From the IMG/VR virus record IMGVR_UViG_3300010391_001881: a DNA stretch of 15,702 bases; one strand, given 5' to 3'. Below, in pieces: positions 7,471 to 7,893 of this stretch. Each line of letters begins with the position of its first letter. Within the stretch, counting starts at the first letter, position 1. The notes beneath the pieces are model-generated. The model saw only the letters and a list, made by a program, of their open reading frames with translations. It ran no database searches and was not told where the DNA came from. The stretch is from a virus. The position numbers and the translations under genes are program-made.

Positions 7471-7893
7471 TTAAATAAAACAAACTAATATTTCAATATT
7501 TGTATTTTCAAATATTTCTTTAATTATTTCTTTGACTCTTGGCCAAGATAAATTATCGAGACCAGAACCAATCTTCGGCATTACGATGTGTTTTATATTG
7601 TTCTGTTCAGCGTGAATTCTCATGTTAGTTAATGCCGCTTCTATAGATCGATAAGTTGGCTTGTGCCAGTATTTTTCTTTAGTGATTAAGTTGTAGACTC
7701 CATTGTGAAATATGCAGATTGGACTTTTCCTAAATATCGGCTCAATGTCTTCAAGTCCACTAAGTTTGAATTTCTTTTTCATTGGAACTGCAATTCCAGC
7801 TCCCATTTTGCAATCCGAAGAAATACAATGAGCTGGAGTATATTTCTTGAAATCTACTGAAAATAAATCTTTGTGTTCTTCTTTATATTCCAT
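7471..7893 (-). CDS. Macro domain protein of the TARG1/OARD1 (C6orf130) and DarG type; ADP-ribose hydrolase
   Basis: Near-collinear match to human TARG1: AHCISSDCKMGAGIAVPMKKKF versus [28 protein letters not shown] versus SHKPTY, IVMPKIGSGLDNL versus LSMPRIGCGLDRL (catalytic Lys/Asp context conserved). Confidence 0.85.
   Translation of the reverse strand: MEYKEEHKDLFSVDFKKYTPAHCISSDCKMGAGIAVPMKKKFKLSGLEDIEPIFRKSPICIFHNGVYNLITKEKYWHKPTYRSIEAALTNMRIHAEQNNIKHIVMPKIGSGLDNLSWPRVKEIIKEIFENTNIEILVCFI

What the first reader, a model, noticed from the sequence alone, without database searches (positions are those of the whole stretch)
7471..7893. TARG1/DarG-type macro domain next to GroES: candidate ADP-ribosylation eraser or counter-defence
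The protein aligns nearly residue for residue with human TARG1 (OARD1), including the catalytic Lys and Asp contexts. In bacteria the closest relatives are DarG antitoxins, which remove ADP-ribose from thymine in ssDNA (DarTG defence). A phage-borne copy could neutralise DarT-type or other ADP-ribosylating defences, or could process ADP-ribose by-products of Tpt1-type tRNA repair.
Basis: partly seen in the sequence, partly recalled or inferred. Interest (0 to 1): 0.6.

Follow-up and report, generated by a model that had tools for sequence, protein, structure and literature searches.

The report
Phage TARG1-type ADP-ribose-removing macrodomain
A large bacteriophage carries a small enzyme that closely resembles human TARG1 and should strip ADP-ribose tags off proteins or nucleic acids; it is a well-supported but fairly ordinary member of a known enzyme family whose target during infection is still unknown.

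Summary
ORF 7471..7893 (minus strand, 140 aa) is a stand-alone macrodomain. It matches human TARG1/OARD1 over its full length (E=5e-27, 44% identity). The AlphaFold model (pLDDT 96) superposes on TARG1 (TM 0.88-0.90).

The TARG1 catalytic dyad is present as Lys72 and Asp113 and is invariant in relatives. The published TARG1 signature TKx(30,35)Px[IL]GxGxD also matches.

It is not a DarG antitoxin:
- It has no C-terminal DarT-binding domain and no DarT gene nearby.
- It scores 42.8 bits against a cut-off of 250 for the NCBIfam DarG model.
- It carries Ser/Asp/Asp where DarG and the validated phage anti-DarT macrodomain AdfM carry Asn/Val/Gly.

Its closest relatives are phage-borne TARG1-like proteins, mostly on contigs over 50 kb. 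The GroES adjacency is real, and the two genes are probably co-transcribed, but it is synteny confined to one phage lineage.

Across 63 non-redundant viral loci, the only recurrent neighbour is a phage WGR-PARP gene (10 of 63). None lies near this gene. A Tpt1-like mini-ADP-ribosyltransferase lies 5 kb away.

The biological role is inferred: either counter-defence against host ADP-ribosyltransferases, or erasing marks made by the phage's own transferase. I rate it a new member of a known kind, of moderate to low interest.

The parts
7471..7893 (-). CDS of a 140-aa stand-alone TARG1-type macrodomain, a predicted ADP-ribosyl glycohydrolase
   Evidence: ORF. PDB TARG1 E=4.9e-27. Pfam Macro above the gathering cut-off. 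AF2 pLDDT 96.2. Foldseek best hits are TARG1 at TM 0.88-0.90. TARG1 signature pattern matched at residues 71-113.
7678..7680 (-). Codon of Lys72, equivalent to the catalytic Lys84 of human TARG1 (Lys80 of DarG)
   Evidence: Alignments. Invariant in 65 of 65 relatives and 63 of 63 viral representatives. Codon read from the sequence.
7555..7557 (-). Codon of Asp113, equivalent to Asp125 of human TARG1. This residue is TARG1-specific; DarG and AdfM have Gly here.
   Evidence: Codon read from the sequence.
7160..7462 (-). Phage GroES-like co-chaperonin gene, immediately downstream and probably co-transcribed. This is genomic context, not shown to be a functional partner.
   Evidence: Pfam Cpn10 4.1e-13. 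PHROG 3188 co-chaperonin GroES. NCBIfam GroES models all score below their cut-offs. The ATG at 7462 lies 8 nt after the macro stop, with the AAGGAG site abutting that stop and sharing its last base. The same start was called in the Logan contig. GroES follows the macro gene only in the close clade L002, L009 and L014.
2198..2635 (-). Candidate ADP-ribosyltransferase-like protein (~145 aa): a Tpt1/PARP-like NAD-lobe with an H-Y-E/Q triad, fused to a DnaJ-type CxxCxGxG zinc finger. It is a possible 'writer' for the macrodomain, but the link is weak.
   Evidence: A TTG start at 2635 sits behind an AAGGAG site and clears tRNA-Lys 2757..2832. The family has 154 representatives. Triad conservation: H6 58/60, Y26 43/60, E/Q56 60/60. 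The top 5 PDB hits of the family profile are Tpt1, and 10 of the top 11 (E 0.009-0.11). 16 of 60 members hit Pfam PARP weakly and 51 of 60 hit DnaJ_CXXCXGXG. AF2 pLDDT 96.8. The best Foldseek hits are Tpt1/KptA (8 of the top 9), then PARP14 and diphtheria toxin, all at E>=0.03. Its homologue lies 0.4 kb upstream of the macro gene in L002, but there is no macro gene near it in 3 other viral loci.

Best explanation
The gene encodes a catalytically competent, single-domain ADP-ribosyl hydrolase of the TARG1 (OARD1) subfamily, carried as an accessory gene in the tRNA island of a large phage. It is probably transcribed together with a phage GroES.

Mechanism, inferred from the conserved active site:
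- The macrodomain cleft binds the ADP-ribose moiety of a modified macromolecule. The residues involved are the G31-A32-G33-I34 loop, the P106...G109-S110-G111 loop, S25 and T71.
- Lys72, activated by Asp113, attacks C1'' of the distal ribose. This releases ADP-ribose and restores the unmodified target.
- By analogy with human TARG1 and F. mortiferum TARG1, the accessible substrates are ADP-ribose linked to Glu or Asp of proteins (including whole PAR chains removed en bloc), to phosphorylated RNA or DNA ends, and O-acyl-ADP-ribose. For human TARG1 they also include ADP-ribose linked to thymine in ssDNA.

Biological role, inferred and not shown: during infection the enzyme erases ADP-ribosylation that would otherwise block phage replication or translation. 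Most likely these are marks written by host ADP-ribosyltransferase defences or toxins of the DarT2 type, which would make it an orphan 'eraser' counter-defence gene.

How sure I am:
- About 0.9 that it is an active TARG1-type hydrolase.
- About 0.4 that its main job is counter-defence against host transferases.
- About 0.3 that it serves instead a phage-encoded transferase.
For: Identity and fold:
- TARG1 E=4.9e-27, 44% identity, TM 0.88-0.90.

Active site:
- K72 and D113 are invariant.
- The published TARG1 pattern TKx(30,35)Px[IL]GxGxD (PMC6397177) matches at residues 71-113. It also matches 117 of the 120 closest homologues.
- S25, D27 and D113 are TARG1-like, whereas DarG and AdfM carry N, V and G at these positions.

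Substrate range of the family, from the literature:
- TARG1 and FmTARG1 remove Glu/Asp-linked MAR, PAR en bloc and OAADPr (PMC6397177; PMC8120803).
- TARG1 reverses DarT thymine-ADPr and protects cells from DarT (PMC9411070).
- TARG1 removes ADPr from phosphorylated RNA/DNA ends (PMC11833690).

Precedent for an orphan phage macrodomain as an anti-DarT2 factor:
- AdfM of PhiKZ (PMC13309987).

Accessory-gene behaviour:
- The family sits in many different neighbourhoods of large phages. 59 of the 80 IMG/VR loci are on contigs over 50 kb.
- Close 'bacterial' copies lie in prophage- or phage-like gene arrays.
- No DarT or other toxin gene is adjacent, so it is not a self-contained TA module.
Against: - No activity, substrate or phenotype has been measured for any phage TARG1-type protein.
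- The validated anti-DarT macrodomain AdfM is DarG-like, not TARG1-like. It shares 23% identity with this protein (pairwise E=1e-3) and has no TARG1 hit of its own.
- The host is unknown, so I cannot say whether it carries DarTG or any other ADP-ribosylating defence.
- The only recurrent genomic partner of phage TARG1-like genes is a phage PARP (10 of 63 non-redundant loci). In this lineage a Tpt1/PARP-like mini-transferase is nearby. Both point to a phage-internal writer-eraser pair rather than counter-defence.
- Only 15.7 kb of the genome is available.
Confidence: 0.5

Rival explanations
1. The macrodomain is the eraser half of a phage-encoded writer-eraser pair. It limits or reverses ADP-ribosylation installed by the phage's own H-Y-E-type transferase: a WGR-PARP in other phages, and the Tpt1/PARP-like mini-ART with a zinc finger in this lineage. 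In that role it could protect phage components, recycle automodified enzyme, or time a host takeover.
For: - In 18 of 86 loci (10 of 63 clusters at 90% identity), a ~405-aa WGR+PARP protein (Pfam PARP 2.2e-23, WGR 2.2e-7) starts 10-13 nt after the macro gene in most cases, and always within 800 nt.
- PARP is the only Pfam family recurring among the 124 immediate neighbours (7 members).
- Removing PARP-made Glu/Asp-linked ADPr is TARG1's canonical job (PMC4245714; PMC6397177).
- In L002 the mini-ART homologue lies one small gene upstream of the macro gene. In the window it lies 5 kb away on the same strand.
- ART-like features of the mini-ART are documented.
Against: - The PARP-linked macro genes form two clades separate from the window's clade and share only 36-46% identity with it.
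- No PARP lies within 10 kb in the window, L002, L009 or L014.
- The mini-ART is not near a macro gene in 3 other viral loci, and it is absent within 10 kb of the macro gene in L014. The pairing in two related contigs may simply be shared synteny inside a tRNA island.
- The ART assignment of the mini-ART rests on sub-threshold scores (PDB profile E>=0.009; Foldseek E>=0.03).
Confidence: 0.3
2. The enzyme is a metabolite clean-up enzyme. It would hydrolyse small ADP-ribose derivatives: O-acetyl-ADP-ribose from sirtuins, ADP-ribose-1''-phosphate or 1''-2''-cyclic phosphate from Tpt1-type RNA repair, or ADPr-derived immune signals. It would not act on modified macromolecules.
For: - TARG1 and FmTARG1 deacylate OAADPr efficiently (PMC6397177).
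- The jumbo-phage survey proposes that Macro domains degrade soluble ADPr derivatives and act downstream of KptA (PMC7824862).
- The gene lies in a tRNA island with 19 tRNAs. It is near a Tpt1-like NAD-lobe protein and in the same window as a PncA nicotinamidase.
- PHROG 335 is annotated 'phosphatase'.
Against: - The mini-ART lacks the Tpt1 RNA-binding lobe and its catalytic Arg-His-Arg-Arg context. Only profile positions 4-39 align.
- No RNA ligase, kinase/phosphatase or 2H phosphoesterase is in the window.
- ADPr-1''-P phosphatases are of the Poa1p/MacroD type, which are much poorer structural matches (12-14% identity, TM about 0.7).
- The conserved Lys/Asp dyad is the TARG1 glycohydrolase mechanism.
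- The PADLOC ThsA macro hit is insignificant (E=0.027).
Confidence: 0.1
3. The gene is a DarG antitoxin, or a remnant of one, from a DarTG toxin-antitoxin module carried by the phage.
For: - Partial matches to DarG models: PADLOC DarG 2.8e-12 and NCBIfam antitoxin_DarG 3.8e-11, both covering only residues 66-137.
- DarG macrodomains are the second-best structural class.
- The catalytic Lys is shared.
Against: - It scores 42.8 bits against a cut-off of 250 for the DarG equivalog.
- At 140 aa it has no room for the ~200-aa DarT-binding domain.
- No DarT-like ORF is in the window or among the 124 neighbours of relatives.
- DarG's Asn22 is Ser here, and the TARG1-specific Asp is present where DarG has Gly.
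- In the NJ tree it groups with human TARG1, apart from DarG and AdfM.
Confidence: 0.02
4. The protein is a non-catalytic ADP-ribose reader or sponge. It would bind ADPr-containing signals or marks without hydrolysing them.
For: Many macrodomains are readers only. Perina et al. noted that only a few viral TARG1-like proteins keep all the catalytic residues (PMC4245714).
Against: This protein and its whole clade keep every residue described as catalytic or ribose-binding in TARG1: S25, T71, K72 and D113.
Confidence: 0.05

Closest known systems
Human TARG1 / OARD1 / C6orf130 (PDB 4J5R, 4J5S, 4J5Q, 2L8R)
   Same: - Single ~140-150-aa macrodomain.
- 44% identity over residues 9-137.
- Predicted fold superposes at TM 0.88-0.90 and rmsd 2.0 A.
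- The catalytic Lys/Asp dyad, S35 and T83 equivalents and both phosphate-binding loops are conserved.
   Different: It is encoded by a phage rather than an animal, and its cellular targets must differ. It has no N-terminal extension. Its activity is untested.
Fusobacterium mortiferum TARG1 (FmTARG1, FMAG_01619), the one biochemically characterised bacterial TARG1
   Same: It belongs to the same TARG1-type subfamily as defined by the pattern TKx(30,35)Px[IL]GxGxD (PMC6397177; match). The closest cultured-phage relatives of the window protein infect Fusobacterium, Bacillus, Lactobacillus and Lysinibacillus. This mirrors the Firmicutes/Fusobacteria bias reported for bacterial TARG1.
   Different: FmTARG1 sits in a chromosomal operon with an immunity-protein-51 gene, a polymorphic-toxin context. 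The window gene sits in a phage tRNA island next to GroES.
DarG antitoxin macrodomain (T. aquaticus 5M31/5M3E, M. tuberculosis 5M3I) of DarTG2
   Same: Same ALC1/TARG1/DarG class of macrodomains. The catalytic Lys is shared. TARG1-type enzymes can also cleave DarT's thymine-ADPr mark (PMC9411070).
   Different: - 17-18% identity in the structural alignment; E=3.8e-6 against 4.9e-27 for TARG1.
- Ser in place of DarG's Asn22, and Asp113 in place of Gly.
- No C-terminal DarT-binding domain and no DarT gene.
- Far below the NCBIfam cut-off.
AdfM (PhiKZ gp104), the validated phage anti-DarT2 macrodomain (Cell Rep 2026, PMC13309987)
   Same: An orphan stand-alone macrodomain in a jumbo phage. It is the functional precedent for a phage eraser that counters a host ADP-ribosyltransferase defence.
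   Different: AdfM is DarG-like: it hits 5M3I at 9.4e-25 and has no TARG1 hit. It shares only 23% identity with the window protein (pairwise E=1e-3). It branches with DarG in the tree and fails the TARG1 pattern. AdfM acts inside the phage nucleus of chimalliviruses, and I found no evidence for a phage nucleus here.
Phage TARG1-like + WGR-PARP gene pairs (uncultured large phages in IMG/VR)
   Same: The macro proteins belong to the same TARG1-type family and all match the TARG1 pattern.
   Different: Those genes are followed within 10-800 nt by a PARP. The window's clade has GroES and tRNAs downstream instead, and no PARP within 10 kb.

Membership tests
Macrodomain superfamily (Pfam PF01661) | Score above the Pfam gathering threshold, and the three-layer alpha/beta/alpha macro fold | tested here: met
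   25.3 bits against a cut-off of 22. AF2 model at pLDDT 96.2. 210 PDB matches at E<=0.001; of the 50 best listed, most are macrodomains and the rest are designed serine hydrolases and a few uncharacterised proteins.
TARG1 / OARD1 subfamily | Full-length sequence similarity to TARG1 that is stronger than to any other macrodomain class | tested here: met
   TARG1 E=4.9e-27 against DarG 3.8e-6. Foldseek gives TARG1 3e-16 at 41% identity against DarG 7e-10 at 18% identity. It groups with human TARG1 in the NJ tree.
TARG1 / OARD1 subfamily | Catalytic dyad Lys84/Asp125 and the signature TKx(30,35)Px[IL]GxGxD (Garcia-Saura et al. 2019, PMC6397177) | tested here: met
   K72 and D113 are present. The pattern matches residues 71-113. 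Both residues are invariant in relatives.
TARG1 / OARD1 subfamily | Distal-ribose contacts S35 and T83, and a single-domain architecture of ~140-150 aa | tested here: met
   S25 and T71 align with them. The protein is 140 aa with no other domain.
TARG1 / OARD1 subfamily | Hydrolysis of Glu/Asp-linked ADP-ribose, OAADPr, or nucleic-acid-linked ADP-ribose | not testable with these tools
   This needs a biochemical assay with K72A and D113A controls.
DarG antitoxin (DarTG2) | Reaches the NCBIfam NF048014 equivalog cut-off | tested here: not met
   42.8 bits against 250, and only residues 66-137 align.
DarG antitoxin (DarTG2) | C-terminal DarT-binding domain (total length ~330-400 aa) | tested here: not met
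   The protein is 140 aa and ends at a TAA 8 nt before the GroES start. The DarG models are 329-338 positions long.
DarG antitoxin (DarTG2) | Adjacent DarT toxin gene | tested here: not met
   No DarT or other toxin family appeared in Pfam scans of the window ORFs, nor among the families listed for the 124 immediate neighbours of relatives.
DarG antitoxin (DarTG2) | Active-site Asn22 and Lys80 (T. aquaticus numbering) | tested here: inconclusive
   The Lys is present as K72. The Asn position is Ser25, as in TARG1.
AdfM (phage DarG2-like anti-DarT macrodomain) | Close similarity to PhiKZ gp104 and to DarG2 macrodomains | tested here: not met
   23% identity and pairwise E=1e-3. gp104 hits DarG structures but not TARG1. 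The two fall on separate branches.
AdfM (phage DarG2-like anti-DarT macrodomain) | Removes DarT2 thymine-ADPr and protects the phage from DarTG2 | not testable with these tools
MacroD / Poa1p-type ADPr-1''-phosphatases | Closest fold and sequence class, with the Asn/Asp/His catalytic set | tested here: not met
   Poa1p and viral or MacroD-type domains match at only 10-18% identity and TM 0.69-0.76, ranking behind TARG1 and DarG.

The most novel reading that the evidence does not exclude
The TARG1-type macrodomain and the nearby uncharacterised 'mini-ART + DnaJ-type zinc finger' protein (2198..2635) may form a phage-encoded reversible ADP-ribosylation system. It would be embedded in the tRNA island and would act on RNA or tRNA ends, or on translation or chaperone factors. 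The mini-ART has a Tpt1/PARP-like NAD lobe without an RNA lobe, and its family has about 154 representatives. More generally, TARG1-type erasers in large phages may be partners of phage H-Y-E transferases (PARP in 10 of 63 loci) rather than anti-DarT factors.
Probability: 0.12. Interest if true: 0.6.

Novelty: new member of a known kind. Interest (0 to 1): 0.35.

Why it matters
If the enzyme is active, it adds the TARG1 subfamily to the set of ADP-ribose erasers that phages carry. So far only NADAR-type and DarG-like (AdfM) erasers have been validated.

The family is much larger in phage metagenomes than the roughly 30 bacterial TARG1 sequences reported in 2019. I found at least 1243 relatives, including 170 in IMG/VR.

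It could be tested directly as a counter-defence gene against DarTG2 or other ADP-ribosylating immune systems. The observed PARP-TARG1 operons also suggest that some large phages run their own reversible ADP-ribosylation. None of this changes current concepts; it extends them.

Tried and rejected
1. DarG antitoxin. Rejected on length, the absence of DarT, the model cut-off and the active-site residues.

2. Functional coupling with GroES. GroES follows the macro gene only in the window's own clade (window, L002, L009, L014). In about 60 other non-redundant loci the neighbours differ, so this is lineage synteny.

3. Mini-ART as a general partner.
   - A forward census found it within 10 kb of a macro gene only in the window and L002.
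   - A reverse census of 5 viral loci (3 non-redundant) found no macro gene.
   - The link therefore remains unproven.
   - A first attempt to scan with the 60-sequence alignment failed because it had no sufficiently conserved stretch.

4. DNA-level identification of the phage. Megablast against 50,697 phage records matched only a 73-nt tRNA-Ala, so the genome is not in the cultured collection.

5. TAG stop-codon recoding, suggested by the suppressor tRNA(CUA). Read-through of TAG does not improve or merge ORFs in the window more than read-through of TGA or TAA does.

6. Promoter scan around the gene. No minus-strand promoter or terminator hits; uninformative.

7. PncA as part of a described phage NAD+ reconstitution pathway. 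NARP1-3 as described do not use a nicotinamidase.

8. The GC-rich patch at 10401-10800 as an integrase remnant. Only a Pfam Phage_integrase hit at E=0.055; left unresolved.
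Full report

Yes. An uninterrupted ORF runs from an ATG at 7893 to a TAA at 7471 on the minus strand, encoding 140 aa.

- phmmer against all PDB chains returns the five distinct human TARG1/C6orf130 sequences at E=4.9e-27 to 6.6e-27, aligned over query residues 9-137. The next class, the DarG macrodomains, scores only E=3.8e-6 and 0.027.
- BLASTP against the TARG1 sequence gives 44% identity and E=8e-35. I supplied that sequence from memory and checked it against the alignment printed.
- Pfam Macro is just above its gathering score, at 25.3 bits against 22.
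- An AlphaFold2 model built on 65 relatives has mean pLDDT 96.2. Its best Foldseek matches in the PDB are all TARG1 entries (E~3e-16, TM 0.88-0.90, rmsd 2.0 A, 41% identity). The DarG macrodomains follow at 17-18% identity.

**2. Catalytic residues**

- TARG1 Lys84 and Asp125 align with Lys72 and Asp113. Both are invariant in 65 aligned relatives and in all 63 non-redundant viral representatives.
- The signature that Garcia-Saura et al. designed to define TARG1-type proteins is TKx(30,35)Px[IL]GxGxD (PMC6397177). It matches residues 71-113, 117 of the 120 closest homologues, and human TARG1. It does not match T. aquaticus DarG, M. tuberculosis DarG or PhiKZ AdfM.
- Three positions separate the subfamilies. 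Ser25, Asp27 and Asp113 here and in TARG1 correspond to Asn, Val and Gly in DarG and AdfM.
It is not met.

**3. What kind of genome is this?**

- The window is 38% G+C, and all confident genes lie on the minus strand.
- It carries 19 tRNA genes (ARAGORN; all confirmed by Rfam), interspersed with small ORFs.
- Other genes are a GroES-like gene, an HNH/endonuclease VII-like gene, an 847-aa protein with major-vault-protein shoulder and repeat domains, a thymidylate-synthase-like gene, a PncA nicotinamidase and a DHHA1 protein.
- Megablast finds no related cultured phage.
- The macro protein's relatives lie on phage contigs of 77-278 kb with the same tRNA-island layout. The closest cultured-collection hit is an uncultured 484-kb phage. 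Fusobacterium, Bacillus G, Lactobacillus and Lysinibacillus phages follow.
- The window is therefore part of a large, probably jumbo, phage.

**4. Neighbours**

- The GroES-like gene (7160..7462) starts 8 nt after the macro stop, and its AAGGAG site abuts that stop, sharing its last base. The two genes are very probably co-transcribed.
- The order macro ... GroES ... 137-aa ORF recurs in L002 (67% identical macro), L009 (79%) and L014 (66%). Small ORFs are inserted between the genes in some of these.
- Outside that clade the neighbours are unrelated: a sigma factor and Pol III alpha, peptide deformylase, a methyltransferase, and others. I read the GroES adjacency as lineage synteny, not functional coupling.
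- To look for a real partner I fetched 80 IMG/VR loci encoding relatives. 59 of these are on contigs over 50 kb. I clustered all ORFs within 6 kb of the macro gene.
- One family stands out. A ~405-aa protein starts just after the macro gene in 18 of 86 loci. Pfam identifies it as WGR + PARP catalytic domain (2.2e-7 and 2.2e-23).
- After collapsing macro proteins at 90% identity, 10 of 63 clusters have this PARP within 800 nt, most with a 10-13-nt gap.
- A Pfam census of the 124 immediate neighbours of 62 non-redundant loci shows PARP (7) and WGR (5) as the only families recurring more than twice. No DarT appears among the listed families.
- In a rough NJ tree the PARP-linked genes form two clades distinct from the window's clade.

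**5. A possible local 'writer'**

- ORF 2198..2788 as listed overlaps tRNA-Lys. A TTG at 2635 behind an AAGGAG site gives a 145-aa protein. It begins WYHGTTRRGYKEILRGGLKTGSYLTPHL.
- An exhaustive HMMER search finds 154 representatives, mostly 140-160 aa.
- The family conserves His6 (58/60), Tyr26 (43 Tyr, 10 Phe), Glu/Gln56 (41/19) and two invariant CxxCxGxG zinc-finger motifs.
- The top 5 PDB hits of its profile are Tpt1/KptA sequences, and 10 of the top 11 (E 0.009-0.11). All align at the NAD-lobe HGT motif.
- 16 of 60 members hit Pfam PARP weakly, and 51 of 60 hit the DnaJ zinc-finger domain.
- The AF2 model (pLDDT 96.8) finds Tpt1/KptA (8 of the top 9 hits), then PARP14 and diphtheria toxin. 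All of these are at Foldseek E>=0.03, which is below significance.
- I conclude it is probably an H-Y-E-clade ADP-ribosyltransferase-fold domain that lacks the Tpt1 RNA lobe, but this is not proven.
- In L002 its homologue (44% identity, E=6e-37) lies one small gene upstream of the macro gene.
- However, it is absent within 10 kb of the macro gene in L014 and in all other loci. Three other non-redundant viral loci that carry it have no macro gene nearby. The link is suggestive only.

**6. Comparison with what is known**

- Viral TARG1-like proteins and phage PARPs were noted bioinformatically in 2014 (PMC4245714).
- Macro domains in jumbo phages were discussed as degraders of ADPr derivatives and as helpers of KptA-type RNA repair (PMC7824862).
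- Bacterial TARG1 was characterised once, as FmTARG1, and was reported as rare, with about 33 sequences, mostly from Firmicutes and Fusobacteria (PMC6397177; PMC8120803).
- Human TARG1 and the TARG1/ALC1-class SCO6735 reverse DarT thymine-ADP-ribosylation (PMC9411070). TARG1 also cleans ADPr from phosphorylated RNA/DNA ends, such as those made by Tpt1 (PMC11833690).
- The orphan-eraser counter-defence idea is now validated for a macrodomain: AdfM, PhiKZ gp104 (PMC13309987). AdfM is DarG-like: it hits 5M3I at E=9.4e-25, has no TARG1 hit, shares 23% identity with the window protein, and sits on a different branch.
- The window protein is therefore a new, uncharacterised member of a known enzyme subfamily, in a setting (large phages) where that superfamily is already recognised.

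**7. Mechanism and role**

- Shown: the gene, the fold, the subfamily and the intact active site.
- Inferred from family knowledge: Lys72/Asp113-mediated cleavage of the C1'' linkage, releasing ADP-ribose from Glu/Asp-modified proteins, thymine-ADPr DNA, phosphate-end ADPr nucleic acids or OAADPr.
- Inferred from context: an accessory, infection-phase eraser.
- I weigh counter-defence against host ADP-ribosyltransferases at about 0.4. It has the AdfM precedent, a solitary gene in variable neighbourhoods, and no toxin partner.
- I weigh eraser for a phage-encoded transferase at about 0.3. It has the PARP operons in 16% of non-redundant loci and the nearby mini-ART.
- The remainder is metabolite clean-up at about 0.1, reader or sponge at about 0.05, and DarG at about 0.02.
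- The available 15.7 kb and the unknown host do not allow a firmer choice.

**8. Verdict**

- Novelty: a new member of a known kind. Interest: 0.35.
- The most novel reading still open is a phage writer-eraser system involving the mini-ART, at probability about 0.12.

Noticed in passing
window 2198..2635 (-); homologue L002:9130-9573: An uncharacterised family of ~145-aa proteins with 154 representatives. Each combines a Tpt1/PARP-like NAD-lobe (conserved H, Y and E/Q) with a DnaJ-type double CxxCxGxG zinc finger. No Pfam family covers the N-terminal domain. The AF2 model reaches pLDDT 96.8, and the best fold hits are Tpt1/KptA, but below significance.
   Followed up: partly
L053:10001-11649, and 17 other IMG/VR loci (L024, L028, L047-L049, L052, L055, L056, L059, L062, L065, L066, L069, L077, L086, L090, L092): In 10 of 63 non-redundant viral loci, the TARG1-like macro gene is followed by a WGR + PARP-catalytic gene, usually with a 10-13-nt gap. 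This is an apparent phage-encoded PARP/TARG1 writer-eraser operon. I found no description of such an operon in the papers I read.
   Followed up: partly
window 289..9397 (-), 19 tRNA genes; suppressor at 6206..6278: A dense tRNA island of 19 tRNAs, all on the gene strand. It includes a tRNA with anticodon CUA, an amber suppressor that ARAGORN labels 'Pyl'. This tRNA is also present downstream of the macro gene in L002, L009 and L014. TAG read-through does not improve ORFs in this window, and 3 of 24 genes end in TAG.
   Followed up: partly
window 8962..9051 and 9308..9397 (-): tRNA-Tyr and tRNA-Trp are each called at 90 nt. A long variable arm is expected for Tyr but is unusual for Trp, which may carry an insertion or intron. 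Their Rfam scores are among the lowest of the set (37 and 47 bits).
   Followed up: no
window 10792..13335 (-): An 847-aa protein with major-vault-protein shoulder (PF11978, 4.5e-23) and vault repeat (PF17795) domains, a weak SPFH/Band 7 signal, and a long coiled-coil tail. An MVP-like protein is an unusual thing to find in a phage.
   Followed up: no
window 14473..15090 (-) and 15100..15666 (-): A phage-encoded nicotinamidase PncA (NCBIfam NF008623, 200 bits against a cut-off of 174) lies next to a DHHA1-domain protein. This NAD-salvage step is not part of the described phage NARP1-3 pathways. It shares the window with the ADP-ribose-releasing macrodomain.
   Followed up: partly
window 13534..14445 (-): A 303-aa thymidylate-synthase-like protein. 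Its best match is the archaeal/methanogen-type model TIGR03283 (111 bits, below the cut-off of 174.55), with a weak Pfam Thymidylat_synt hit. It may be a divergent pyrimidine-modifying enzyme, such as a hydroxymethylase.
   Followed up: no
window 10401..10800: A patch of 50% G+C in a 38% G+C window, lying between the HNH-like gene and the MVP-like gene. A 74-aa ORF (10426..10650, minus strand) ends in a motif like the C-terminus of tyrosine recombinases (Pfam Phage_integrase E=0.055 only). It could be a gene remnant or foreign insert.
   Followed up: partly
window 2838..3026 (-) and 3034..3246 (-): Two small membrane proteins: a DUF7248 protein (E=1.1e-14, with a weak holin-like hit) and a 70-aa hydrophobic ORF. 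They are conserved as a pair in L009 and L002, inside the tRNA island.
   Followed up: no
L099 (GCA_900198705.1) and L101 (GCA_051065675.1, Tissierella): The nearest 'bacterial genome' copies of the macro gene (57-59% identity) lie in long unidirectional arrays of small unknown ORFs. One array is next to an integrase and a PemK toxin. They are therefore probably prophage or phage DNA rather than core chromosome.
   Followed up: partly
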